IMG/VR virus record: IMGVR_UViG_3300017766_003321 | Span: 1 to 48,624 of that record | Length of the DNA stretch: 48,624 nt | Origin: a virus | Taxonomy: Duplodnaviria; Caudoviricetes | Strand: one strand, 5' to 3' | Shown: piece after piece, positions 1 through 48,624 of the stretch | Position numbering within the stretch: the stretch's first letter is position 1 | Layout: the number at the start of each line of letters is the position of its first letter | The notes under the pieces: generated by a model | What the model was told of the DNA's origin: nothing | The model's input: only the letters and a program-made list of their open reading frames with translations | The model's database searches: none | Translations under genes and position numbers: made by a program

Positions 1-150
1 ATGAGAACAGTCGGTCATGTGCAAACGGCCGGTGAGGATGCGCTCCACCCCCTGGGGCCTTTAGCATGCCCGGCCCACGATGAGCGCGCCACGATGGCTG
101 CGGCATGGCTGCTGCGCCTTCCGTGAGGGTGCGTGAGGTGGCTCAATGGC

Positions 151-480: not shown

Positions 481-491
481 GGCGCGCGCCT

Positions 492-587
492 GGTGAGGTG
501 GGTGAGGTGGGTGAGGTGGGTGAGGTGGGTGAGGTGGGTGAGGTGGGTGAGGTGGGTGAGGTGGGTGAGGTGGGTGAGGTGGGTGAG
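492..587 (+). repeat. Perfect tandem repeat of GGTGAGGTG, 10 full copies plus a 6-nt partial
   Basis: Read directly; units start at 492, 501, ... 582. Confidence 0.98.
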
Positions 588-715
588 CTCACTACACCAG
601 GCGCGCGCCGAGTAAGCGCGGCTATCTGCAGCTGCAGTAAATGCGCCTTGCGTTTGATCCATTCGCGCCTGGCGCTACAGCCACCACATGCCATACATCA
701 TCCGATAAACGGTAC

Positions 716-744
716 TTGTATGTACTCACCTAGAAGAGTACATT
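716..744 (+). promoter_or_regulatory. Sigma70 promoter (TTGTAT-17-TACATT) overlapped by inverted repeat ATGTACTC-N8-GAGTACAT, a putative Aca-type operator
   Basis: -35 at 716-721, -10 at 739-744; IR arms at 720-727 and 736-743; AGGAG RBS and ATG 782 downstream. Confidence 0.75.
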
Positions 745-781
745 TATTCCGTCGACTCACCCACCGCTAGGAGCACTCACC

Positions 782-964
782 ATGACCGACCGCCAACTGA
801 ATAAATTGTCCTTGCAAGACATGGACATGACCCCGGACGCGCTGAGCATCGCACGCCAGGAAGCCGCGCGCAAGCTCGCACCCCGCAAACCCGCACCCCG
901 CAAAGCCTACGAAGCACCGAAACCCGCGCGCCGTGGTTTCTTTGCCCGCCTTTTCAACATCTGA
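782..964 (+). CDS. Hypothetical 60-aa protein with C-terminal amphipathic RRGFFARLF tail
   Basis: AGGAG RBS; first gene after the promoter. Confidence 0.75.
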   Translation: MTDRQLNKLSLQDMDMTPDALSIARQEAARKLAPRKPAPRKAYEAPKPARRGFFARLFNI

Positions 965-971
965 GGTCAAC

Positions 972-1448
972 ATGAACGATTCAAACACTCTCGCTCAAAC
1001 CTTGCGCGCTGCAGGTCAAACCCTTTTCTCTGACCGCGCCAGCATGCCCAAAAATAACGCGCAAGCCGCGCTCGACGGTCGCACCCACTACGCGGAGGAT
1101 TCGACACTCCGCTATTTTCACGCGCGCATTTTGAGCGCGCATGAATGCCGCAGTGGCTGCTTTTTTTACATTATCGAGTCTTGCGCGCTTGACGCTAACA
1201 ACACGTCACGCGGATTCCGAGCAGTCGTTTTTGATGTATTTGGGACCGTGGTTTATCGGCCTGACTTGCAAAGCACCTACCGCACAAACGGGCAGGCGCG
1301 CAAAGCCATGTGGGCGTGGTTTGACGCGTTTGACGAAGTGCAGCACTACGCCGATGCCTTGCGCCGCAAAGCCGCGCGCCTTGAGCGCGAAGCCGCAGAG
1401 ATGCGCGCCGCGGTGGCCACGCTTGAGAGTGCTGAGGTGGCCGCATGA
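972..1448 (+). CDS. Hypothetical early protein (158 aa)
   Basis: GAGGT RBS before ATG 972; ATGA coupling to next gene. Confidence 0.8.
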   Translation: MNDSNTLAQTLRAAGQTLFSDRASMPKNNAQAALDGRTHYAEDSTLRYFHARILSAHECRSGCFFYIIESCALDANNTSRGFRAVVFDVFGTVVYRPDLQSTYRTNGQARKAMWAWFDAFDEVQHYADALRRKAARLEREAAEMRAAVATLESAEVAA

Positions 1449-1879
1449 CTACAACATTTCACACATACGCTCAATACCTGCAGGCTTGCACCGAGCGCGC
1501 GGTTAATTCACACCGGCCACCTGCAGCGCCTTACTTTTGGGTTTGTGCTGGGTGCGGAAAATGCGCGCCGCACAGCGAAAGCTACGGCACCGACGGGAAA
1601 ACCGAGATGGTCTGTTATGACTGTTGCGCCGCGCGTGATGTCGAGCAGATGCTAGACCGGTCTAAGCCTTTTTACGCTTACTTGTCGTGCGACGGGCGCG
1701 AGCTGGTCAACTGGCCCGGACGCAGTCTCGGGCACGTGCTGAATTATTCAGAATCGCGCGCTGGGTGGAATGGGGGAACTATCGCGCGGTTTCGGGTGCT
1801 AGACGTGCACGGGCAATTGTGGGCGGGGCGTGGAGCGGGTAAAGGCATGTTTTGCACCTTGCGTGCGATGAAAGGTTGA
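1445..1879 (+). CDS. Hypothetical Cys-rich protein (CAGC, CYDCC), probably metal-binding
   Basis: GAGGTG RBS, coupled ORF. Confidence 0.8.
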   Translation: MTTTFHTYAQYLQACTERAVNSHRPPAAPYFWVCAGCGKCAPHSESYGTDGKTEMVCYDCCAARDVEQMLDRSKPFYAYLSCDGRELVNWPGRSLGHVLNYSESRAGWNGGTIARFRVLDVHGQLWAGRGAGKGMFCTLRAMKG

Positions 1880-1884
1880 TCCCT

Positions 1885-2292
1885 ATGGAACTCAACATTA
1901 CTCAATTTTTCAACACGTGCGCGCCGCGCGACTTTAGCGCCAGCGTGGCCGAAATAGGCCAGGATGCTGGCGCCGCCACCTGGCAAGCCGCGTGCGAAGA
2001 AGAGACGCAAATTCTTGACACTGAAGAGAAGCGCGAAGCCTTCCGGGAATTTGTGCGCGGTGCTGGCGCCTGGTCTGACGAAGAAATAGCCGCCATGAGC
2101 GACGCGCATTTGAACGCGCTGTGTGTTCAATGGATCTCAGGCGATATGCGCGAACCCGTCGGGTTTGAGCTCGGCGCGCACAGTGACGACGAACAGTGGG
2201 CGGAATATGAACGCCAGTCAAACGCGGGCAATGTGGCCGGGCGCCTGTTCAAAGGCACCGACGGCGAAATTTACTGGGACTGCGCATGTTGA
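1885..2292 (+). CDS. Hypothetical strongly acidic protein (135 aa)
   Basis: AAAGG RBS; about 27 D/E versus about 9 K/R by hand count. Confidence 0.8.
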   Translation: MELNITQFFNTCAPRDFSASVAEIGQDAGAATWQAACEEETQILDTEEKREAFREFVRGAGAWSDEEIAAMSDAHLNALCVQWISGDMREPVGFELGAHSDDEQWAEYERQSNAGNVAGRLFKGTDGEIYWDCAC

Positions 2293-2456
2293 GCGACCTG
2301 GAGTCGCGCGCCTGGTCGCGCATGTGCCGCAAGCCTGCGCCGCTGGATCACTCCCCGCTGAGCTATGACCGAATGCTCGCACGCGCGCAAGCGTGGCGCC
2401 TGTTGCAGCGTCTGCAGGGGCGCCGCGTCTCTCTGTACCAAGCCATCAAAGAATGA
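2286..2456 (+). CDS. Hypothetical 56-aa protein (MLSDLESRAWSRMCRK...), not in the ORF track
   Basis: Manual translation; overlaps the previous stop and fills the operon gap. Confidence 0.6.
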   Translation: MLSDLESRAWSRMCRKPAPLDHSPLSYDRMLARAQAWRLLQRLQGRRVSLYQAIKE

Positions 2457-2521
2457 AGGTCAATCCCTGCGCATGCTGTGCGCAGTGGTGGGCGATTTTG
2501 CCTTTTCACCTGGAGCTAATC

Positions 2522-2944
2522 ATGCTTACCGAATTGAACGCCATCAACAGCGCGCGCACGCAGTACCGCGCTATGTTTAAGAGCATGGCGCGCGCTGGCG
2601 TGGCGTGGAATATCCACCGTGGTTCGTGCAATGTTGTTTTGCTGCAGCAAGGCGCGCCGATGGACGTGGAGCTTCCGATTTTGCTTCGCAACGTGCACGC
2701 CATGGGTGAGCAAACGATGGTTAACGCGCTGAGCCAGGCGCTGCGCTCGCAGGTGCAAACAGCCACTTATCCTAGAATCGTTCGCGGTCCGAATATTGAA
2801 GTGGCTCGACCACGCAACGGCTGCCCGAGGTATGCATGGGTGCAAGGTTGGATAGTCGAATATGCCCCGGACCGCACCAGCACGCCCGAACGACTGAATG
2901 ACGCGCGCCATCTGCTCAAGCACGCGCAACAGGTGCAAGCATGA
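2522..2944 (+). CDS. Hypothetical protein (140 aa)
   Basis: GGAG RBS before ATG 2522; ATGA coupling. Confidence 0.75.
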   Translation: MLTELNAINSARTQYRAMFKSMARAGVAWNIHRGSCNVVLLQQGAPMDVELPILLRNVHAMGEQTMVNALSQALRSQVQTATYPRIVRGPNIEVARPRNGCPRYAWVQGWIVEYAPDRTSTPERLNDARHLLKHAQQVQA

Positions 2945-3156
2945 GAAAAGCCGATTACCTGATCCTGGCGCGCGCCCTGCGTGAGCGCGTCGCAAAGTGG
3001 AGCCCCGCAGAACATACCGCCGGCCAGCTGCAAAGTGAGGTGCAGGCGCGGATGTCTGAAAGCCTGCAAGCCGCAAGCCTGGCGCGCTACCTTGCGCAGC
3101 ACCTCAGCGTCGACCGCGTGGAATTCCTCAAAGCCTGCGGGGTGAAGCCAGACTAG
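2941..3156 (+). CDS. Hypothetical helical protein (71 aa)
   Basis: Coupled ORF ending FLKACG. Confidence 0.75.
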   Translation: MRKADYLILARALRERVAKWSPAEHTAGQLQSEVQARMSESLQAASLARYLAQHLSVDRVEFLKACGVKPD

Positions 3157-3205
3157 ACCCGCACCCACTCACCGTCGACGCGCGACGTTAAACCGCAGAG
3201 ACGCT

Positions 3206-3247
3206 AGGGCGCCACCTTCAATCGAGGGTGGCGCCCTTTTGTTTTTG
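3206..3247 (+). terminator. Intrinsic terminator-like hairpin between the early genes and the HTH gene
   Basis: AGGGCGCCACC..GGTGGCGCCCT stem followed by TTTGTTTTT. Confidence 0.7.
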
Positions 3248-3258
3248 GAGCTCACCCC

Positions 3259-3477
3259 ATGACCCCGCAAGCCTTTGAAGCCCTGCGCACCCTGACGCGC
3301 ATGCGAGAAACCCCCAGCACTCAGGCCGCGCGCCTGGTCCTCACGCAGGGGGCGCGCCCGGTCGACGCAGCCCCGGCCGCCGGGATCAGCGTGCAGGCAT
3401 GCCGCAACGCGGTGCAGCGCGTGCGCAAGGCGCTGCAGCTGGCGCGCGTGGCCGCGGGTGGCGATTCCGCACCATGA
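3259..3477 (+). CDS. aca4: TrfB/KorA-type HTH protein resembling anti-CRISPR-associated Aca4
   Basis: MTxxxFxALxxLxRxR..AARLVL..G..P.DAA...GI..QA pattern matches the Aca4/TrfB family as I recall it; GGAG RBS. Confidence 0.75.
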   Translation: MTPQAFEALRTLTRMRETPSTQAARLVLTQGARPVDAAPAAGISVQACRNAVQRVRKALQLARVAAGGDSAP

Positions 3478-3629
3478 TGGCGCGCGCTGCACCAAATCGG
3501 TGCGTTCGTGCACCATTTTGGGTTGTTGCGACACATTCTCGTGCATTGCATCGGACCCCCCTCCCGGGGATTTTTTGGGCCTTCCGGGGGTTGGTGGCCA
3601 CGGTCTGGCGTTTTTGGATTTTTGGATGG

Positions 3630-3905
3630 CGCACCCCGCACGTTTTGACCACGGGGTACCGAGGGGTGCGCTAAGTTGTTGATTTGATTGATTTACCCCG
3701 CATACCCCGTATACCCCTTATATAAAGTTAAATAGTATGGGTGTATCGTATAAACGATGGTGGTTTCATCATGATGGTAGCCGTCATCCACCAGCGCCGC
3801 CGTACGGTCTGGACCTACGGGGTATGCGGGGTGCGGGGTATTCCCTTATAAATCAAGCACTTAGCGTACCCCGCACTTTTTGTCAGGGGTACCGCGGGGT
3901 ACGAT
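3630..3905. other. Putative replication origin: AT-rich core flanked by ACCCCG/CGGGGT iteron-like direct and inverted repeats
   Basis: Non-coding; IR at 3663-3685/3850-3872; IR at 3694-3711/3816-3833; DR at about 3632-3670/3867-3903; AT-rich 3715-3755. Confidence 0.6.
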
Positions 3906-3926
3906 GGCTAAATCATGGAGAAAATT

Positions 3927-4253
3927 ATGGAAATAATCACACGCAAGGCCGCTCATGATTCCGCCATGGTGCATTATTTTACGGGTGTGCCGTGTATCCG
4001 CGGCCATGTGGCACCACGATACGTAATCACGGGGAATTGTGTGGAGTGCAACCGCACAGCGCGGCCAATGCGCAAGCTCGATGCGGAAACCATCAAAAAG
4101 CGATCTGCGATGAAACCGCCACCATCGCAATTTCTTAAAGTGACCCTTACCCTGCCCCGGGGTCACGTCACGGCCATGAAGGAATTGGCCCGGGCGCTGT
4201 GTGCCGCCGAGCACCCGCCCCCACCCCCTTCGCTACAGACCCGGCAACCCTAG
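3927..4253 (+). CDS. Zn-binding phage protein (YFTGxPCxRGH..RY..GNCxEC domain)
   Basis: Motif usually seen N-terminal in phage HNH endonucleases; GGAG RBS. Confidence 0.75.
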   Translation: MEIITRKAAHDSAMVHYFTGVPCIRGHVAPRYVITGNCVECNRTARPMRKLDAETIKKRSAMKPPPSQFLKVTLTLPRGHVTAMKELARALCAAEHPPPPPSLQTRQP

Positions 4254-4604
4254 CTGGGCTTCAGGCATGTCGGGCCACTCCCATGCGCCCTTGAGTAGGT
4301 TGGCGCGCCAGTGGAACACTTGGAGGTTGTTGGCCACGTGCAGGCCGCAGACTAGGCGGGATCTTTTGGGCACGATGTGATCCACGACGTGGAGCTCGCC
4401 CGTCTCCCGGGTGCGCCGTTCGGCTTCGGCGTAGACCCGGGCGATGGCGGCCATGTCAGCCCACCCCGGGGTTGCTCGTGCTATGCGAGCGAGGTGCACG
4501 CGCCCCTCTTTGCCTGGTGGAATCACGAGAGGTCGGGTGATGCACGCTGGCGCAAAGAGCGGCCCGTTGCAATGGCCGCCCTCCAGCTGCAGTTGCTGCT
4601 GCAT
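4233..4604 (-). CDS. HNH endonuclease (ATPxWA-type)
   Basis: ATPGWAD..TGELHVVDHIVP..VCGLHVANNLQ..NLLK. Confidence 0.85.
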   Translation of the reverse strand: MQQQLQLEGGHCNGPLFAPACITRPLVIPPGKEGRVHLARIARATPGWADMAAIARVYAEAERRTRETGELHVVDHIVPKRSRLVCGLHVANNLQVFHWRANLLKGAWEWPDMPEAQLGLPGL

Positions 4605-4615
4605 ACCCCACCCCC

Positions 4616-5361
4616 TCACATCACGCACTCGACCCAGATTTGCGCGGCGTGCGCGTTGACCGCGTTGCCGTAGGCGCGCAGTCGTCCCACGCGGCTGGTA
4701 GCCCCATGAGCCGGCGGGAATGTGCCGGGTTCAACTGGCCGCCACTTGTCATCCCGGCAGATTGGCCTGCCTCGGAAGCTGGTCGAATCGTTCTTTCCCC
4801 GTGTCGCCCCGCGGCGTGATGTCCGCCCCCGAGTCCTTCCAGTCGCGCGTCGTGGGTGTGACCCACCCAGTACGTTCGGTCTCGGATGTGCGGAGCACCG
4901 ACGCCCGCAGACGGAAACGCGATGGCCCCGAAGGCGTAACCCATTCCTTCCAGGTCAGCTTGTACAAGGTCGATCCAAGGGTCTGCGTCTTTGCTCGCAA
5001 CCTGCTCTCCAAGCACTGCTGGAGGTCGGCACTGTGCGATGAGCCACTGGAGGTGCGGCCAGAGATGCCGCTCGTCATCAAACCCAGCGCCTTGGCCTGC
5101 CGTGCTGAAAGGCTGGCAAGGACATGAGCCAGTCCAGACAGGTCGGGAGTCTGGCCACCCGGCGTTGCGCAGGGCGTGGGACCACACCCCGATGCCGGCG
5201 AAGAAGTGGCATTGGGTGAATCCGCGCAAATCGTTGGGTGTGACATCTTCAATGCTCCTTGTGTCGACAATGCCTGGCGCGATGTGGCCGGCGATGATGA
5301 GGTTGCCCAGCCACTCAGCGGCGTAGGGGTCGATCTCGTTGTAGTAGGCCATGTGCGTCAC
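4616..5361 (-). pseudogene. C5-cytosine DNA methyltransferase of the overlapping-frame two-subunit type, alpha chain, frame-disrupted near 4760
   Basis: FFAGIG (motif I), SCPCQPFS (IV), GEQV (VI), PHIRDR (VIII); expected C-terminus [12 protein letters not shown] is in another frame, ending at 4616. Confidence 0.75.
4749..5270 (-). CDS. Overlapping beta chain of the C5 methyltransferase, truncated
   Basis: LYKLTWK..TPSG..RLRAS..[12 protein letters not shown]; its usual LNP.HSR.LMG end is read in the alpha frame. Confidence 0.6.
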
Positions 5362-11105: not shown

Positions 11106-11432
11106 TCACCCCCGAGGTGCAGCTTGATGCGAGAGGTGTGCGGCGGCGAGTTCACGCAGCGCATCGTCGGCCTTGAGCGCGTGCGGATCACGCAGCGCAA
11201 TGCCCCGGGCCACGATGGGCACGATGCGTTCCTTGACGGCTGCGCGCATCACGTCGCGGCGCAGTTGCGTGACGGTGCCGAAGTAGTGGATGACCAGGGT
11301 GTGGGTAACGCCGACGCGCTTCGCAACATCTGCCTGCGTGACTTTATCCACGCCTTTGGTCTCGGCGATGTCCAGAGCAGCCTGCAAAATCTCGGCGCGG
11401 CGTTCGCCTTTGGGGAGTCGTTGTTGTGTCAT
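11106..11432 (-). CDS. TetR-like HTH transcriptional regulator
   Basis: RRAEILQAALDIA..G...VT..DVAKRVGVT..LVIHYF. Confidence 0.85.
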   Translation of the reverse strand: MTQQRLPKGERRAEILQAALDIAETKGVDKVTQADVAKRVGVTHTLVIHYFGTVTQLRRDVMRAAVKERIVPIVARGIALRDPHALKADDALRELAAAHLSHQAAPRG

Positions 11433-13328: not shown

Positions 13329-13540
13329 AGCGCCCCCAGTTCCGCACGAGCGGCGTTGAGTTGGTTCGTGAGGTCGGCGCGCAGCAACGTGCGCACGGCG
13401 GCTTGCGTCTCGGGCGTCGCGGCGTCAAAGCAATCGCCGGGTTCTCGCATGTCCGCGGTGTCGACACCCTTGACTTGATTTGCGAGCCCACGCATGCGAT
13501 AGGCAATGTTGTTGGCGTTGGACAGTTGTTGCTCGGTCAT
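13325..13540 (-). CDS. Hypothetical protein (71 aa)
   Basis: GGAG RBS, coupled. Confidence 0.65.
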   Translation of the reverse strand: MTEQQLSNANNIAYRMRGLANQVKGVDTADMREPGDCFDAATPETQAAVRTLLRADLTNQLNAARAELGAL

Positions 13541-16220
13541 GACAATTGCACTCCATGGTTGGTTAAGTCTTGCACGATGCGCTCGCGCAGCGTCTCAGCC
13601 TCGGCCCGGGGAAGCGCCCACGCACTCATCAGGTCGATGCCGAATTTAAAATAGAAGCGGGCTTCGGCCTCGGGCTGGTCGCGCCCCTGGTGCGTCTGCC
13701 ACCCGCCCCACGTGGTCATAGCGCGGCGCAGATTGTTCTGAGCCATCTGGCGCTCCCAGTGTGACTTGCGGTTGGCGCCAGCGATGATGGCGGGCAGGCC
13801 CGGCTGCGGCGAGTAGGGCGCGTCCAGCAACTCCACCTCGCCCCGCATGCGTGCAAGCACTGCCGGGTCCAACTCGCCCAGCACACCGTCGACTTGCTCG
13901 GGTGAGCCACGCCCGGCGGGCTCGTGACGGTAGCCACAGTGTGGGCATTGCAGGCGGTAGCGCTCGTAGGCCGAGGTGCACCCAAGGCACACGCGCATCG
14001 GGATGACGTCGCTCGGGCCGCCGTTGCTGCGGCGTTCGCGTCGATCCAGTGACCAGACCCGGGGCCGGTCGGGTAGCCCGTGGCGCATCACGTTGCCAAC
14101 GTGGTCCAGGATGATCGCGCGGTCTTTGCCTTCCATGGGGCGCAGTGCACGACCGAACTGCTGGGCGTACAGCGCGTAGCTCTGCGTGGGGCGGGCCATG
14201 CTCACCACCTCAATGGCCGGCAAGTCGAAGCCCTCGCCGAACAGATCGACGTTGACCAGCTGCAGCACCTCGCGGTTGCGGAAGCGGCGCAGCACCTGCG
14301 CGCGCAGCAAGTCCGGCGTCTCGGCGCTCACCACCTCGGCAGGCACCCCGGCGTCACGGTAGGCCCGTGCAAGCTCGCCAGCGCTCTCCACATCGACCGC
14401 AAAGGTGACGCCGAGCTTGCCCTGCGCCACGCGCAAGTAGTGCGCCACGACATCCCCCGTGATGTGCGACTTGTGCACGGCGGCGCGCAGCTTGGGCGGG
14501 CTGTAGTCACCCCCGGCGCTCACCGGCACGCTGGACAGGTCCAGGTCGCTCACCGGCGGCGCAAACACGCGGTACTCGGTGAGGTAGCCGTCGATGATCA
14601 ACTCGCGCATGGTCGGGCCTTCAACCATCGCATCCATGATGCCGTCGGACGACGCGCCGAGCCCTTTGCCGTCAGCGCGCACCGGTGTGGCCGTCACACC
14701 CAGCGTGCGCGCGTTGGGGAACATCTTGCTCGCGGTGCCCCACTTGTTGTCTTTGAGCACGTGGTGCGCTTCGTCCTGCACCACCAGGCCTACTTGCGCA
14801 AACCACGGGTCGCTATTCTTGTCACGCCGCACAAGCGTGTCGACACCGGCCACGGCGCAGCGCCCGCTGGGGTCAAAGTACGATCGGCCCACCTCGGCGA
14901 GGTGCAGCGCAACGCAGGCCTTGGCGACGTTGCTCGGGCCGATGACGCGGTGACGCACGCCGTTGCGAGCCAGCGCCAGGCTCATCTGCGTGACGAGCTC
15001 ACTGCGGTGAGCGATGGCCACGGTGGCGCCACGCTCACGAGCCAGCATGTGCGCAAAGATGACGGTGTTGTGGGTGACGGTGAAGTCGCCCAGCAGAAAA
15101 AGCCGATCGGTTCCGTCAATCTCAAAACCAAAGTAGTCGCCAACCCCAATAGGCTCGACGCTCAAACCCGTGAGCAACACGTCTTTGATCTGGCGGCGCG
15201 GCTCGGCTTGCTTGCGCAAGACCCGGCAGGGAATGTCCTCAATGTCTCCCGAGATCGTGCACCGAAAATAGTTGCCAGAAACGCCGTTGTTGTGGCATTT
15301 CTTGACGCACTTTTTCTTGGTTGCAGCGAACCCGAGCGAGCGAGCTAAAAACACAATGTCGTCAAACAGGCTTCATTCGACAGGGTGAGGTCGTAGGAGC
15401 CGTGCGCCAAACTGCCATCAGCGTCAAGCAAACCGGCCAGCACTAACGAACGCGTGGCCCGACTTGCCGTTTTGTAGATGTGTGGCACGTGTTTGTTGTG
15501 CAACACGCCCATTGTTCTCAGCCAGTTGTTGGGCTTTGCGCCTTTGCGGCCAGACCAACCCGGGGCGCCAAGCCGCTCGACGACATGCAGCACTTGCGAG
15601 TTTTCGGAATTGGGTTCGTAGCGAATCTGCAGGCCATTCATGCGCGCAAAAAGCTCTACCTCGCGCACGATCTCAACGTCTCCGGTCGTGATGCTCAGAC
15701 CTTTGCTGTTTCCGTCACCGAGCCACAGGCCGAAGATGTAGGGGTCCAAAGCGTAGTCGGGGAGCACGCCCCAAAAGTCAACGCCCGTGCGCCAGCCCTT
15801 TGCGCAATGCCGAAAGGTCGGAGTTGCAGCAAGGTAGTCACGCACCGAGATGTTGACAATTTTTCCAGCCTTGATGCCGCACGATCTTTTGGAACCGCCG
15901 GTCATCTTAAACGACAGAATGTGCGACTCGTTGACTACGTATGGGTCGCCTTTTTTGGGCGTCACGCGGTAGAGCATTTCCCGGCCTTGACACGTGGAAA
16001 CCACGCGGCGCGGCCAACTGTCCGGCCCCATGAGCAGTTCGCCGGGTTGTATAGTTTCGACAGCCCGAATCGTGCCGTCAAACATGAGTACAGGCGTGCC
16101 GCGCCCGAGGCACTTGCCCGACCCCGTGGGTGCCACGGCCAGCACGTTGCGATGGCCTTTGGCCCACTCAACGTCGACACCGCCGACGATGGCTTGCTGA
16201 TAGCTGCGGAGAGTAGTCAT
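13537..16220 (-). CDS. SF2 DEAH helicase interrupted by an intein, with a frameshift near 15370
   Basis: LRSYQ, APTGSGK/T, DEAHH, TATP, EGFDLP, QQFGRALR, C-terminal CxxC..CxxC; split over ORFs 15345-16220 and 13537-15354. Confidence 0.9.
15067..16112 (-). mobile_element. Intein with LAGLIDADG homing endonuclease inserted in Walker A
   Basis: GK|CLGRGTPV, block B VNESHIL, FGLWLGDG and LAGLLDADG, YFGFEIDG, THN|T. Confidence 0.95.
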
Positions 16221-16441
16221 TTGGTGGAGGCGCGAGTGTTCCAGCGGGCCAAGGCTTGCTCTTCCACCTTGGAATTGTCGGCGTACCCGCCTTTGGAATG
16301 GTTCCCGATGACGCAGAGCCGAAAGCCGCAAGCGGCGCAGCCGTAGCAAACCTGATCCGCGTAGGAAAAGCGTTCGTCAAGATGTTGCTTTTCTTTTTTA
16401 GCGGGGCCGCCACAGAACGGGCACGCTTCGGGTTTGCTCAT
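16217..16441 (-). CDS. lar: Lar-family restriction alleviation protein
   Basis: CPFCGG..CAACG..ALARWNTRA. Confidence 0.75.
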   Translation of the reverse strand: MSKPEACPFCGGPAKKEKQHLDERFSYADQVCYGCAACGFRLCVIGNHSKGGYADNSKVEEQALARWNTRASTK

Positions 16442-40045: not shown

Positions 40046-40699
40046 TCAGAAGTTGTGCACGCGGAACGACGAAATCAGATCCTCGCGCGTGCGCATGATG
40101 TCGGCTTTTTCGTTCGGGTCAAAGCGGTCGGCCAGCACCTGCACGGTCAAGCAAATGGCGTCTTTGAGCGGCGCGGGAATGGCGTTGGTGTACTCGGCCG
40201 GCGAATCGCTCCAGGGGTAGCCAGCGGTGTAGGTGATGCGCAGGGCGTCGGGGCGTTCGTACATGCACGGGGCGAACCACGAGTCAACGAATCGCAGCTG
40301 TGGCACGTAGTCCTCGGCGAGGAAGTAGTTGGCCGGATCAATCACCTGAGAGGCGTTGAGCCCGTCAAAGTAGTCGACCGACTCGATGCTGGCCACGGGG
40401 GGCCGAAGCAGGTCGATCCCGCGGGGGCGACCCCAGCCCCCGATGCGTCCGAAGCCAACGAGGTACGGGTGCTCGACCGCGCCCATCTGCAGCCGCAGTG
40501 TCTGCTTGACCAAAGCACGACGCGTGGCCTGTTCAATCCAGATACGCGCCGTGCGGATGTGGCGCTCGATCGTGCTCTGGAGGGGGTAGACAAGCGCTGG
40601 TGGCGAGCCCTCTTCCTCGGCGTCCCACCGCAGAAACTCATACACCTCGGCCACGGTGACTGGCTCGACTGGCGGCTCGACGAGAGTGACGATGTTCAT
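40046..40699 (-). CDS. Head-tail connector (gp6/phiE125 gp8-like)
   Basis: PP.EPVT..E...FLR, AR..IE..T.RAL..QT, Y.AGY, IP..LK.AI. Confidence 0.88.
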   Translation of the reverse strand: MNIVTLVEPPVEPVTVAEVYEFLRWDAEEEGSPPALVYPLQSTIERHIRTARIWIEQATRRALVKQTLRLQMGAVEHPYLVGFGRIGGWGRPRGIDLLRPPVASIESVDYFDGLNASQVIDPANYFLAEDYVPQLRFVDSWFAPCMYERPDALRITYTAGYPWSDSPAEYTNAIPAPLKDAICLTVQVLADRFDPNEKADIMRTREDLISSFRVHNF

Positions 40700-41268
40700 G
40701 GCGTGTCCATCAAAACGCAGCCAATACCCATGAGGGAGCCTGGCGCAACAAACTCGACGGTATTGTAGCCTTGCGACTTTAAAACGCGCCAGAAAGTCGG
40801 CACCTCCACTGGCCGCCCGCCCTGCTTCTCGCGCTGGCCAACGCCCACGATGTCGTGGAAGGCAACGATGCGCGCCATGCTGCGGTAATTGCGCCAGTCG
40901 GCCGTCACGCCTTCTAGGGTGTGGTCGCCGTCGATCAGTAGCGCGTCATAGGGGCCGCGGCCTTGGAACAACCGCACGGTGGCCGCGGTCTTGCTGTCGC
41001 CAAACAGGCATGAAGCTCTCGGCCCGATGTCAGCCACGGCTCGTTCCAGATTCACCCGAGTCCGGGGGTTGCCCCACAGGCCGCCCGGCAAGTCCAGCGC
41101 AACGCCGCGCGCCGCAGGCAAAGCCGTGAGGATGTGGTGAAACGTGTCCCCGTCACGCGCACCGATCTCGCCGTAGGACTTCACTTTGTGCTCGCGCAGA
41201 AACTCCACGAATGCTGTGAGCTCGTCGGGGTGTTGCGAGGGCTTACGGCCTGAAAAGGTGGTCAGCAC
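40696..41268 (-). CDS. Class I SAM-dependent methyltransferase (Methyltransf_24-like)
   Basis: EIGARDGDT motif I, LIDGDH, AFHDI. Confidence 0.85.
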   Translation of the reverse strand: MLTTFSGRKPSQHPDELTAFVEFLREHKVKSYGEIGARDGDTFHHILTALPAARGVALDLPGGLWGNPRTRVNLERAVADIGPRASCLFGDSKTAATVRLFQGRGPYDALLIDGDHTLEGVTADWRNYRSMARIVAFHDIVGVGQREKQGGRPVEVPTFWRVLKSQGYNTVEFVAPGSLMGIGCVLMDTP

Positions 41269-41837
41269 AGGGCATTCTCCAAGTCTTGTTGCGGGAAGCA
41301 CGTCAGCAACGAGCCTGGCGTGCAGTTGATGATCTCGGCGCCCCGTCCTTTGAGCGCTGCGAAGCGGACAATCCAACGCTCGAAGGTAGCCGGGTCGGTG
41401 TTACGCAGCGGCGGGGCGTGGCGGCCGAAGAAGTGCGAGCCCTTCATGTCGAAACCCAGCAACAGCACACGCTCGGCGCCTTCTGAGATGGCCAAGTGCA
41501 GCGCCTGGTACCCACCGTTGCCACCTGTGCGCACATGCCCCGGGGCTGGGTCGTAACCCTCCAGGCCCGTCTGCTTCAGCCGCTCCACCGCGCGGTAGGG
41601 CACCTGCTGATCACATGACGCCTTGCGCCCGGCAAACGCCAGCGCCTCTTGCTCATTGACCCGCCACCAGGCGGCGTCTGCCGCGTACAGCAGATCCGCC
41701 CAAGGCGCGAGTTTGAACGCGTCATTTACGACGGTTACCGCCGCTCTTTTTTGCTGGTGCGCTGCGTGCACTCTTTGCAGCTGGGCGGACGACAGGCTCG
41801 GCCCGGTCGCCAGGATGATCGTTGTCTTGGGCTGCAT
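41262..41837 (-). CDS. Sialyltransferase-fold/DUF115 (Maf, MptE-like) glycosyltransferase-like protein
   Basis: IILATGPSL, VVND, YAAD, GGNGGYQALHLA, LLGFDM, IINCT. Confidence 0.72.
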   Translation of the reverse strand: MQPKTTIILATGPSLSSAQLQRVHAAHQQKRAAVTVVNDAFKLAPWADLLYAADAAWWRVNEQEALAFAGRKASCDQQVPYRAVERLKQTGLEGYDPAPGHVRTGGNGGYQALHLAISEGAERVLLLGFDMKGSHFFGRHAPPLRNTDPATFERWIVRFAALKGRGAEIINCTPGSLLTCFPQQDLENALC

Positions 41838-46415: not shown

Positions 46416-48157
46416 TCCATCCCCGGCGCGGTTGTAAGTTGATCGGCCCGGTCGACAGTTCCGACAGCCATGGTGGCTGCCACGATGCCGTCGATGCGGC
46501 CCGTCGCTTTGGACTTGTCGAGCTTGCGGTTTCCTGCGGGGTCGGTCACAACCACGGCGTTCGCCGCGTTCGCGTTGAAACATGGGTTGTTGGGATGCCG
46601 CATTTTCTTCTCCACAAGGGCGGTCTCGAACGAATCCCACGCCGGCCCCATGCTGACGAAGCCCTGACCGTGCGGTTCAAGCGGCCATTCTACGCCTTGC
46701 CGCGCGCAGGCCGCCACCAGCACGTCGATACGGTGGCGGTCAAACGGTGCCTTGTCCAGGGTGATGTTGTATTCGGCAAGCAGCTTCTCAACGTAGTTCA
46801 CTACAAAGTCCTTGTCGATCGCCGCGCCAGGCGTGGTTTGCACGAACCCCTTTTTGACCCACACATCGTAGGGTACGCCGTCCTTTCGGGAGCGCTTGGC
46901 CAACTCGTCGCCGGGGATGAACAGAATCGGCCAGAGCCAGTGCACCCCGTCGATTTTCACGTCGAGCACCGCGGCGGTCAAGTCGGTGGTCGCGGAGAGG
47001 TCCAGGCCGAGCGTGCCGCTGAGCCCCCGGAACTTCTCGAGCCCGTACTCGGCTTTTGCTTCCATCCACTTCTCGTAGCTGATTGCGGGGTTGTAGGCCT
47101 CCACCCACTCGCAGAAGTTGAGCCGGCGCACCGTGCTCTCTTTGCTGGGCATACCCTTGGCGGCGTTCACCTCGTCGCGCAGGTACTGCGGGTCGATGAT
47201 TGGCCCGAGCAGGGGGTTTGCCTTGATCCAGCACGACTCGTCCACCAGCGGGTCGTCGCCCTCGTCCATGGCGCAGATATAGGCGAACAGCGTGTCGTCG
47301 TCGGCGATGCGATCGCACACCTGGATGCCCTTCTCGCGATACTCCCAGCACACACTCTTGCGGTCGGTGCCGCTGTTGGTGATGGCCACGATCAGCGGTT
47401 GCCGGCGCCACTTCCGGCCGGCAGACATCATGTTGATGACGTTGGCCGTCTTGTGCTCGTGGAGCTCGTCGATGAGGCCCATGTGTGGCCGCGGCCCCGA
47501 CTGGCCGTCGTCGGCGCTAATCGGCCGAAAAAAGCTGTTGCTGCGGTCATCAAACAGGTTCCACACCTTGTCGTCTTTGCCCGACTTCTTGATGCGGCGG
47601 TCGAGTGCTGGCGACTGGTTGACCATGGCCACGGCGTCGCGGAACAGGATCATCGCCTGGTCCTTTTTCGTGGCCGCCGCGTAGATCTCCGCACGCGGCT
47701 CGTTGTCCGCAACCATGCCGTACAGGCCGATGCCCCCCACCAGCGGCGACTTGCCGTTGCCTTTGCCCATCTCGATGTAGGCCACGCGGAAGCGGCGCGT
47801 GCCGTCCATGCGAATCCACCCGAAGAGCGAGCCCACGATGAACTCTTGCGCCGGCTGCAGCGTGAAGGGGATGCCCTCAAACTGGCCACCGTTCAAACGC
47901 AGCACGGTTGGGAAAAAGCCCAGCGCGTGATTCATGCGCCCGAGGTTGAACTCCAAGCCGCGCAGGTGGCCCACGAGCAAGTCATCCAGGTGCCGGCGGC
48001 ACGCGGCGCGCACGTGCGGACCCGCCACGATCTCCCCGTCGGCTACCTTGCGTGCGTAGCGGGTGACGGGATCGAGATCAGTGGAGGCCGTAGGCGGCGA
48101 GGGGGTCTGTGCCTTTGGGGGCTTCTGGCGCGATGGGGGCTTTTCCGCGACTAGCAT
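46406..48157 (-). CDS. terL: Terminase large subunit
   Basis: RRFR.AYIE.GKGNGKS, DELHEH, ITNSG, GLDLS...DLTA, RIDG.VA. Confidence 0.96.
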   Translation of the reverse strand: MLVAEKPPSRQKPPKAQTPSPPTASTDLDPVTRYARKVADGEIVAGPHVRAACRRHLDDLLVGHLRGLEFNLGRMNHALGFFPTVLRLNGGQFEGIPFTLQPAQEFIVGSLFGWIRMDGTRRFRVAYIEMGKGNGKSPLVGGIGLYGMVADNEPRAEIYAAATKKDQAMILFRDAVAMVNQSPALDRRIKKSGKDDKVWNLFDDRSNSFFRPISADDGQSGPRPHMGLIDELHEHKTANVINMMSAGRKWRRQPLIVAITNSGTDRKSVCWEYREKGIQVCDRIADDDTLFAYICAMDEGDDPLVDESCWIKANPLLGPIIDPQYLRDEVNAAKGMPSKESTVRRLNFCEWVEAYNPAISYEKWMEAKAEYGLEKFRGLSGTLGLDLSATTDLTAAVLDVKIDGVHWLWPILFIPGDELAKRSRKDGVPYDVWVKKGFVQTTPGAAIDKDFVVNYVEKLLAEYNITLDKAPFDRHRIDVLVAACARQGVEWPLEPHGQGFVSMGPAWDSFETALVEKKMRHPNNPCFNANAANAVVVTDPAGNRKLDKSKATGRIDGIVAATMAVGTVDRADQLTTAPGMEWL

Positions 48158-48551
48158 CGGTCAGTCCAAACTCAGTGAGCCACGCCCTCAAACGGCGATC
48201 GGCGTCCGCCAACATGCCGACCTGGGGTCGGGCTTTTTCAACGTGTTCGCCCGTCGTCGTGGTCGCCCAGTACGAGCGGCCATCGTCTCGAATGTCACGG
48301 GCCAGGGCCACCCACTCACCGTAGCATTGACACAGCGCCACGAGGGATGGGCCGCTGTCTTGCGACAGTTGGCCGCGTGCTTGAAGCAGCATGCCGACAT
48401 CAATCCAACAGGTCATTTCATCGGCGCCAAACCATTCGGGAGGTGATGGCAAGCCCGCCACGCGTGGCGGCGCCGTCGCAGCGCGTTCGGCAGCACCTTC
48501 GGTGCCCCGAGCGATCGCTTTTTCCAGTGGGTTTGCAGGGCGGCCTCTCAT
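48078..48551 (-). CDS. terS: Terminase small subunit (P27 family)
   Basis: MRGRP, PP.W, C..Y, P.V, EFGLT.ASR. Confidence 0.92.
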   Translation of the reverse strand: MRGRPANPLEKAIARGTEGAAERAATAPPRVAGLPSPPEWFGADEMTCWIDVGMLLQARGQLSQDSGPSLVALCQCYGEWVALARDIRDDGRSYWATTTTGEHVEKARPQVGMLADADRRLRAWLTEFGLTDASRGKAPIAPEAPKGTDPLAAYGLH

Positions 48552-48624
48552 AGGTCAAATGTTATCAGTATTTCCCGGATTTTGCGCAAAGAGGAGAACA
48601 GTCGTCCTCTCTTTCCCAGATCGG

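What the first reader, a model, noticed from the sequence alone, without database searches (positions are those of the whole stretch)
716..3477. Aca4-like repressor capping seven unknown genes: candidate new anti-CRISPR/anti-defence operon
Seen: a sigma70 promoter whose -35 and -10 are both covered by a perfect 8-bp inverted repeat (ATGTACTC-N8-GAGTACAT), then seven small co-oriented genes of no recognisable family, then an HTH gene. Known: acr operons end in an aca HTH gene that represses the operon through promoter inverted repeats. The 72-aa protein follows the Aca4/TrfB pattern as I recall it. The operon lies at the genome end opposite terS, the end lambda injects first. Inference: the cargo genes are uncharacterised inhibitors of CRISPR-Cas or other defences.
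Basis: partly seen in the sequence, partly recalled or inferred. Interest (0 to 1): 0.82.

Follow-up and report, generated by a model that had tools for sequence, protein, structure and literature searches.

The report
Aca4-type repressor caps phage early operon
A freshwater phage carries seven small genes of unknown function behind a palindromic promoter site and ahead of a repressor gene of the kind that controls anti-CRISPR genes, so the cluster is likely a self-limiting early operon holding new counter-defence genes, though no link to CRISPR was found.

Summary
Observation confirmed: a perfect 8-N8-8 palindrome (720-743), seven co-oriented small ORFs and a 72-aa TrfB/KORA-type HTH. The HTH is an Aca4-family protein (51% and 45% to Pseudomonadaceae Aca4-family proteins). 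Aca4-family loci carry TACAC-N8-GTGTA between -35 and -10 (10 of 26); this phage has the symmetric variant TACTC-N8-GAGTA at the same place, so autorepression is likely. Three facts temper 'anti-CRISPR'. Genes 2 and 4 are widespread phage early-region families, found without Aca4 in 220 of 220 loci and with no known Acr among the scanned neighbours (ArdC and an anti-restriction-like family do occur). Identity lies in the published 'solo Aca4' range. The repressor gene is 73.5% GC against 59.5% for the cargo, suggesting it was grafted onto an existing early operon. Gene 4 is acidic, models confidently and matches no solved fold. Verdict: likely an Aca4-autoregulated early operon of an apparently lytic siphophage; at least one counter-defence gene about 60%, an anti-CRISPR about 28%. 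New variant of a known kind.

The parts
716..744 (+). Predicted sigma70 early promoter, TTGTAT-17-TACATT (7 of 12)
   Evidence: not listed by the consensus scan; same layout as Aca4-family promoters
720..743 (.). Predicted operator: perfect 8-N8-8 palindrome with core TACTC-N8-GAGTA, a symmetric variant of TACAC-N8-GTGTA
782..964 (+). Gene 1, 60 aa, basic (pI 10.9), AGGAG ribosome site; no relative found in the loci held
972..1448 (+). Gene 2, 158 aa; widespread unnamed phage family (135 relatives); confident alpha/beta model with long C-terminal helix, fold search not run
1445..1879 (+). Gene 3, 144 aa; CxxC pairs at the N-terminus; relatives in Rhodococcus phage Mbo2 and directly upstream of gene-4 relatives in 4 loci
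1885..2292 (+). Gene 4, 135 aa, acidic (pI 4.1); PHROG 24784; 394 relatives incl. Xylella phage Salvo gp05 and XacN1; model pLDDT 96.8, best Z 3.1 against solved folds
2286..2456 (+). Gene 5, 56 aa, basic; weakest ORF, no relative found
2522..2944 (+). Gene 6, 140 aa, basic; one partial relative near a gene-4 homologue (45 bits)
2941..3156 (+). Gene 7, 71 aa; one weak relative near a gene-4 homologue (30 bits)
3196..3247 (+). Terminator-like hairpin (14-bp stem at 3206-3237 plus U-rich tail); an outer stem can pair the tail and reaches the first base of the HTH ribosome site
   Evidence: -38.4 kcal/mol, z -8.5
3259..3477 (+). Aca4-family (TrfB/KORA-type) HTH protein, 72 aa, 73.5% GC gene

Best explanation
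This is likely the first-expressed early operon of an apparently lytic siphophage: seven small genes sit behind a palindromic promoter site, and an Aca4-family repressor encoded at the end is predicted to bind that site and shut the operon off after an early burst, with at least one cargo gene likely acting against host defence. Steps: (1) shown: palindrome, ORFs, hairpin and an Aca4-family HTH. (2) Inferred: host sigma70 polymerase fires the 716-744 promoter as this end enters the cell. (3) Inferred: most transcripts stop at the 3206-3246 hairpin, so cargo is made in excess and the repressor only by read-through, which delays shut-off. (4) Inferred from homologous loci and from published reporter work on Aca families: the HTH dimer binds TACTC-N8-GAGTA and blocks polymerase. 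(5) Inferred: the repressor was grafted onto an existing early-gene run. (6) Inferred, weakest: cargo includes counter-defence proteins, as likely against restriction or other systems as against CRISPR; acidic gene 4 is the first candidate.
For: HTH: 34 of 67 identical to the HTH of Stutzerimonas stutzeri locus L085, whose promoter is in the trained acr-aca promoter set of PMC9410906; 30 of 67 to L101, which reads the same as an Aca4 hit in the AcaFinder supplement (compared by eye); 53 of 68 aligned relatives hit Pfam KORA, Aca4's best Pfam family. Operator: TACAC-N8-GTGTA with at most 1 mismatch in 10 of 26 Aca4-family loci (two are one sequence; 3 loci had under 200 nt upstream), between a TTG -35 and a -10 in 9 of the 10; exact TACNC-N8-GNGTA 9 times in 247,977 nt against 1 in 1,077,246 nt and 9 in 1,673,453 nt; the window's only match is this site. 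Both arms changed together; divergent HTHs L113 and L115 have other N8 palindromes at the same place. Grafting: HTH gene 73.5% GC, cargo 59.5%, genome 63.2%; 0 of 220 cargo loci carry the HTH. Relatives of the HTH, gene 2 and gene 4 each list a 6,964-nt longest contig, likely one sister phage. Cargo context: relatives lie in runs of small genes (median 91 aa, 174 loci) that include ArdC (L410) and a family hitting an anti-restriction PHROG in 8 loci. PMC13551039 predicts that Aca proteins regulate many unannotated, possibly anti-defence genes.
Against: No binding, transcript or activity data. The promoter is only 7 of 12. The window-type operator was not found beside an HTH elsewhere: 0 of 79 large loci. 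16 of 26 Aca4-family loci lack the canonical operator within the range scanned. The HTH scores below the KORA cut-off (19.5 against 26.7 bits), falls outside the supported core Pseudomonas Aca4 clade in a poorly resolved tree, and its identity is near the 42% mean of 'solo' Aca4 homologues rather than the 72% of acr-linked ones. No cargo gene hits any named family. Acidity is common here: 477 of 1,669 neighbours have pI under 5. The hairpin may cut the HTH off from this promoter altogether.
Confidence: 0.6

Rival explanations
1. Narrower version: a true acr-aca4 operon in which at least one cargo gene is a new anti-CRISPR, most likely against type I. This is a subset of the best explanation.
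For: Aca4-family HTH with a cognate-type operator. At L103 the same operator precedes AcrIF11; acr-linked HTHs can be as divergent (L103 34 of 66 to L100). New Acrs were found by aca4 guilt by association. Genes 1, 5, 6 and 7 have few or no relatives, as Acrs often do.
Against: 0 of 220 gene-2/gene-4 loci carry Aca4 or the three Acr reference proteins used; 0 of 150 neighbours hit an NCBIfam Acr model, although that library recognised AcrIF11; no Acr among 64 neighbour families in Pfam or PHROGs. Most aca-like genes have no acr nearby. The acr-linked loci seen here hold 1-2 cargo genes, not 7.
Confidence: 0.28
2. The repressor controls an ordinary host-takeover operon (toxic early proteins that redirect the host), with no counter-defence gene; Aca4 was co-opted only to limit a strong early promoter.
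For: Genes 2 and 4 are conserved, widespread families of phage early regions across very different phages, unlike most Acrs. The genome carries its recognisable anti-restriction genes elsewhere (Lar-like 16217-16441, C5 methylase 4621-5361).
Against: The same gene pool holds ArdC and an anti-restriction-like family; Aca4-type operators elsewhere precede Acr genes.
Confidence: 0.25
3. The HTH is a solo regulator outside this operon; the palindrome is chance or is bound by another phage protein such as the TetR-like gene at 11106-11432.
For: Strong terminator before the HTH; any 8-bp palindrome arises in 47 of 2000 shuffles; two core bases differ from the canonical operator; a TetR-family gene exists; solo Aca4-family genes without cargo occur (L095, L097, L108, L111).
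Against: Spacing, position and 8 of 10 core bases match the family operator, at the only such site in 48.6 kb; no promoter-like site of 7 of 12 was found between 2499 and the HTH start.
Confidence: 0.12

Closest known systems
acr-aca4 operons of Pseudomonadaceae (AcrIF11-Aca4; AcrIC6/AcrIC7-Aca4)
   Same: TrfB/KORA-type HTH of about 70 aa at the end of small co-oriented genes; N8 palindrome between -35 and -10.
   Different: Operator core TACTC/GAGTA instead of TACAC/GTGTA; seven cargo genes, none a known Acr; terminator-type hairpin with U tail before the HTH; apparently lytic phage with its own DNA polymerase and no integrase hit rather than a prophage; HTH only 45-51% identical.
Aca-regulated putative anti-defence operons (PMC13551039)
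   Same: Aca operator upstream of unannotated genes proposed as anti-defence; aca4 operons are among those discussed.
   Different: No acr gene in this locus; the cargo families here were not seen in the passages read; supplements of that paper were not opened.
'Solo Aca4' homologues (PMC9410906)
   Same: Identity near the 42% mean; no known acr nearby.
   Different: Normal size, and it keeps a family-type operator in front of a small-gene operon, whereas solo proteins are described as often larger and often lacking the motif.
Leading-end early regions of lytic phages, e.g. Xylella phage Salvo gp01-gp08 next to cos
   Same: Run of small hypothetical genes near the genome end; Salvo gp05 is 46% identical to gene 4.
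   Different: No Aca4-family HTH in the Salvo stretch or in any of 220 cargo loci.
TrfB/KorA repressor of IncP plasmids
   Same: Pfam KORA resemblance and predicted fold.
   Different: Below the Pfam cut-off; covers only profile positions 1-59 of 84; phage context.

Membership tests
Aca4 protein family | About 67-73 aa HTH with KORA/TrfB resemblance | tested here: met
   72 aa; KORA E 0.0012, below cut-off; the L085 Aca4-family protein is also below cut-off at 25.3 bits; Atlas feature and structure hits to KORA clusters
Aca4 protein family | Sequence homology to acr-linked Aca4 over the whole length | tested here: met
   34 of 67 to L085, 30 of 67 to L101
Aca4 protein family | Falls within the clade of acr-linked Aca4 | tested here: inconclusive
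   Outside the starred core clade, but so are acr-linked L103 and L184; 24 of 43 branches open
Aca4 protein family | Hit to the curated Aca4 HMM (AcaFinder) | not testable with these tools
   That HMM is not among the libraries held
acr-aca operon | Inverted repeat in the core promoter | tested here: met
   720-743 over TTGTAT-17-TACATT; family-type N8 operator
acr-aca operon | Short-gene operon: same strand, gaps under 250 nt, proteins under 200 aa, HTH at the end (AcaFinder criteria ii-iv) | tested here: met
acr-aca operon | At least one known Acr or Acr homologue in the operon | tested here: not met
   No hit for the seven genes in Pfam, PHROGs, NCBIfam or PADLOC; gene-2 and gene-4 profiles find no Acr among solved structures. 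dbAPIS and AntiDefenseFinder models were not available, so the test is not exhaustive
acr-aca operon | aca co-transcribed with the cargo | tested here: inconclusive
   Terminator hairpin between them; no transcript data to hand
acr-aca operon | Aca binds the repeat and represses; cargo inhibits CRISPR-Cas | not testable with these tools
   Needs EMSA, reporter and interference assays
TrfB/KorA plasmid repressors | Full-length KORA domain above the curated cut-off | tested here: not met
   19.5 of 26.7 bits, profile 1-59 of 84

The most novel reading that the evidence does not exclude
A lytic phage has captured an anti-CRISPR regulator, re-tuned its operator in both arms, and placed its whole leading-end operon under it; this marks two very widespread, unnamed phage families (gene 2, and gene 4, whose confident model matches no solved fold) as new counter-defence proteins used by hundreds of phages.
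Probability: 0.3. Interest if true: 0.8.

Novelty: new variant of a known kind. Interest (0 to 1): 0.52.

Why it matters
Aca genes are the main handle for finding counter-defence proteins, but most were mined in prophages. One small cloning panel would give them a function. The operator series (TACAC, TACTC, TAAC, all N8) with matching changes in the predicted recognition helix is a ready test of how Aca4 specificity shifts, and the hairpin before the repressor suggests a timing device for the early burst.

Tried and rejected
No DNA-level relative of 600-3600 and no HTH hit among cultured phages. Single-protein locus scans with the HTH and gene 4 found nothing. The 80 HNH loci held no cargo or HTH relatives and served as background. 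HTH alignments were too variable for locus scans. Genome surveys: 6 of 401 family genomes and 2 of 401 class genomes matched; two of the six family hits covered only the HTH core and were left out. Operator as a search key works poorly: 4 of 79 large loci for the canonical pattern had the HTH (two are the L103 contig, two are new) and 0 of 79 for the window-type pattern, so most matches are chance. Gene 3: low-confidence Atlas model, no named hit. Gene 4: no solved-fold match above Z 3.1 among 48,161 chains, which does not prove a new fold; the Foldseek searches did not complete. Gene 2: model made but no fold search was answered. A recalled likeness of gene 2 to DUF7447 was not supported by Pfam. 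No RNA holder listed. No earlier findings of this scan. Paper searches for Aca4 with promoter, repeat or terminator terms gave 0 hits; PMC12658196 does not mention Aca4. The helicase frame break could not be checked against the run. No complex prediction was run.
Full report
Setting. The window is a whole 48,624-nt virus record, rated complete, with no end repeats. It encodes a siphovirus head and tail, DNA polymerase, primase, helicase and lysis genes; no integrase was hit among the 62 proteins scanned against PHROGs, so it is apparently lytic. Its terminase is at most 53.5% identical to cultured phages, and 600-3600 has no DNA match among them. HNH lies at 151-480 and terS at 48078-48551. 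That such phages eject the end opposite terS first is recalled from lambda biology and comes from no call.

Observation. The palindrome is exact at 720-743. Any 8-bp palindrome arises in 47 of 2000 shuffles of 601-781, so alone it is only modestly unusual. The promoter TTGTAT-17-TACATT scores 7 of 12, is missed by the consensus scan and ties with four other sites. Seven ORFs follow with tight gaps; gene 3 scored poorly on codon use but has relatives; genes 1 and 5 have none in the loci held and were not searched in the large protein collection. A contig of freshwater run X1 covers 558-4690 with 3 differences; it may be the source sample.

The HTH. Pfam KORA matches below cut-off; 160 relatives were found; 53 of 68 aligned ones hit KORA; the Atlas agrees. 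Aca4's best Pfam family is KORA (AcaFinder supplement; table 1 of PMC9410906). A genome scan with one relative returned Stutzerimonas stutzeri locus L085: 94-aa and 144-aa genes, then an HTH 34 of 67 identical to ours. Naming those two genes AcrIC7 and AcrIC6 rests on recall plus the statement that both lie by aca4 in P. stutzeri; no library hit them. The L085 promoter is in the trained acr-aca set of PMC9410906. Identity to L101 is 30 of 67. That paper gives 72% mean identity for acr-linked Aca4 and 42% for solo homologues, and found Aca4 only in Pseudomonas. A 46-row tree leaves our protein outside the core clade, as it does acr-linked L103, with 24 of 43 branches open.

The operator. L085 has TACAC-N8-GTGTA between -35 and -10. 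Of 26 Aca4-family loci examined, 10 carry it with at most one mismatch; L089 and L103 are the same sequence, three loci had under 200 nt upstream, and in L118 it lies just downstream of the HTH. Left out of the 26: L086 and L094 (copies of L085), L087, L088, L092 and L093 (core-only hits), L116 and L117 (no HTH hit). Exact TACNC-N8-GNGTA occurs 9 times in 247,977 nt, against 1 in 1,077,246 nt of other loci and 9 in 1,673,453 nt of cargo loci; the pattern was drawn from L085 and the window, so one of the 9 is circular. The window's only match is this site, TACTC-N8-GAGTA: both arms changed at the same position, with a 17-nt spacer instead of 16. At L103 the operator precedes AcrIF11. Divergent HTHs L113 and L115 have TAAC-type N8 palindromes after TTGACA. 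The predicted recognition helix reads QACRNA here against QAVSNA or QGVCNA at canonical loci; tying that change to the base change is inference. The reverse search was weak: 4 of 79 large loci for the canonical pattern had the HTH, 0 of 79 for the window type, 0 of 80 controls. PMC9410906 reports that Aca proteins repress such promoters by about 90% and that scrambling the repeat usually abolishes this; its figures were not visible, so I cannot state its Aca4 motif or confirm that Aca4 was among the ten pairs.

The cargo. No named family for any gene; gene 4 hits unnamed PHROG 24784. Gene 2 has 135 relatives, gene 4 has 394, including Salvo gp05 near cos and XacN1. In 220 loci (80 gene 2, 140 gene 4; the best 80 of 101, all 60, and the best 80 of 187), none has an Aca4-family HTH or any of three Acr references; 61 of 80 and 77 of 140 reach far enough downstream for a fair look. 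Genes 2, 3 and 4 recur together in 9 loci, genes 6 and 7 weakly in one each. Neighbours form small-gene runs: 1,669 ORFs in 174 loci, median 91 aa, by a rough caller. Sixty-four cluster representatives gave no Acr in Pfam or PHROGs; one family in 8 loci hits an anti-restriction PHROG at E 3e-5. 150 proteins, drawn from 149 of 837 clusters plus one picked by eye, gave no Acr in NCBIfam. The picked one is ArdC, in the same run as gene-4 and gene-2 relatives in L410. Gene 4 is acidic, as are 477 of 1,669 neighbours; its model has pLDDT 96.8 and best Z 3.1 among 48,161 chains. The gene-2 model has pLDDT 95.8 and was not fold-searched. A passage in PMC6739867 describes 17 genes near putative aca4 loci tested against Cas9, apparently negative (the passage is cut).

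Synthesis. The cargo belongs to a common pool of phage early genes that usually travels without Aca4. The HTH gene differs in GC (73.5% against 59.5%), which fits a graft. Relatives of the HTH, gene 2 and gene 4 all list a 6,964-nt contig, likely a sister phage with the same cassette; I could not read it. The likely working: early promoter fires, cargo is made, read-through of the hairpin slowly supplies repressor, repressor closes the promoter. Odds: repression at this site 0.85; at least one counter-defence gene 0.6; at least one anti-CRISPR 0.28. It works like an acr-aca4 operon, and the protein is Aca4-family, but the locus fails the test of holding a known Acr, so it is not filed as an acr-aca operon.

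What is in print. Seen: PMC9410906 (passages, sections 18 and 19, supplement searches); PMC13551039 (passages, section 21; supplements not opened, and they may list this or similar loci); PMC9765179 (passages, supplement search); bioRxiv 2020.06.15.151498 (passages; supplements closed); PMC6739867 (one passage); PMC12658196 (term search, no Aca4). The idea that Aca proteins regulate unannotated anti-defence genes is published. In five searches I saw no description of this operator variant or of these cargo families under Aca4. Verdict: new variant of a known kind, interest 0.52.

Noticed in passing
window 481-609: About 11 tandem copies of a 9-mer (GGTGAGGTG) at 492-590, enclosed by 20-nt inverted arms (481-500 and 590-609), between the HNH start and the early promoter. 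The unit resembles a ribosome-binding site; its complement CTCACC recurs in the promoter and before genes 1 and 8. Contigs of X1 break here, so the copy number is unsure.
   Followed up: partly
window 3660-3915: AT-rich gene-free tract with nested inverted repeats (perfect 17-nt arms at 3695-3711 and 3816-3832; 23-nt arms at 3663-3685 and 3850-3872); likely the replication origin.
   Followed up: no
window 13537-16220 (-): Helicase interrupted by an intein with a Hint domain; the frame changes inside the intein's endonuclease region near 15345-15354, giving two ORFs.
   Followed up: partly
window 4621-5361 and 4749-5270 (-): Two overlapping frames both hit DNA methyltransferase families (E 1e-71 and 5e-18): possibly a two-chain C5 methylase encoded in overlapping frames.
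   Followed up: no
window 3-13 and 48594-48604: The same 11-mer lies near both ends of the record, between HNH and terS on the circle; possible terminase sites around cos.
   Followed up: no
L104:5622-6207, L109:5588-6192, L102:5355-6219, L135: Aca4-family HTH with the canonical operator and one to three small unnamed genes, in L104 and L109 within Mu-like head gene blocks; the L104 and L109 genes have no NCBIfam hit. Cleaner anti-CRISPR candidates than this window's cargo.
   Followed up: partly
L113, L115: Divergent Aca4-family HTHs with TAAC-N8-GTTA palindromes in the promoter core: a third operator type.
   Followed up: partly
window 16217-16441 (-), 11106-11432 (-): Lar-like restriction alleviation protein above the Pfam cut-off and a TetR-family regulator.
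   Followed up: no
window 40696-41837 (-): Genes inside the head-tail block, one hitting a sialyltransferase-named PHROG; possible virion glycosylation.
   Followed up: no
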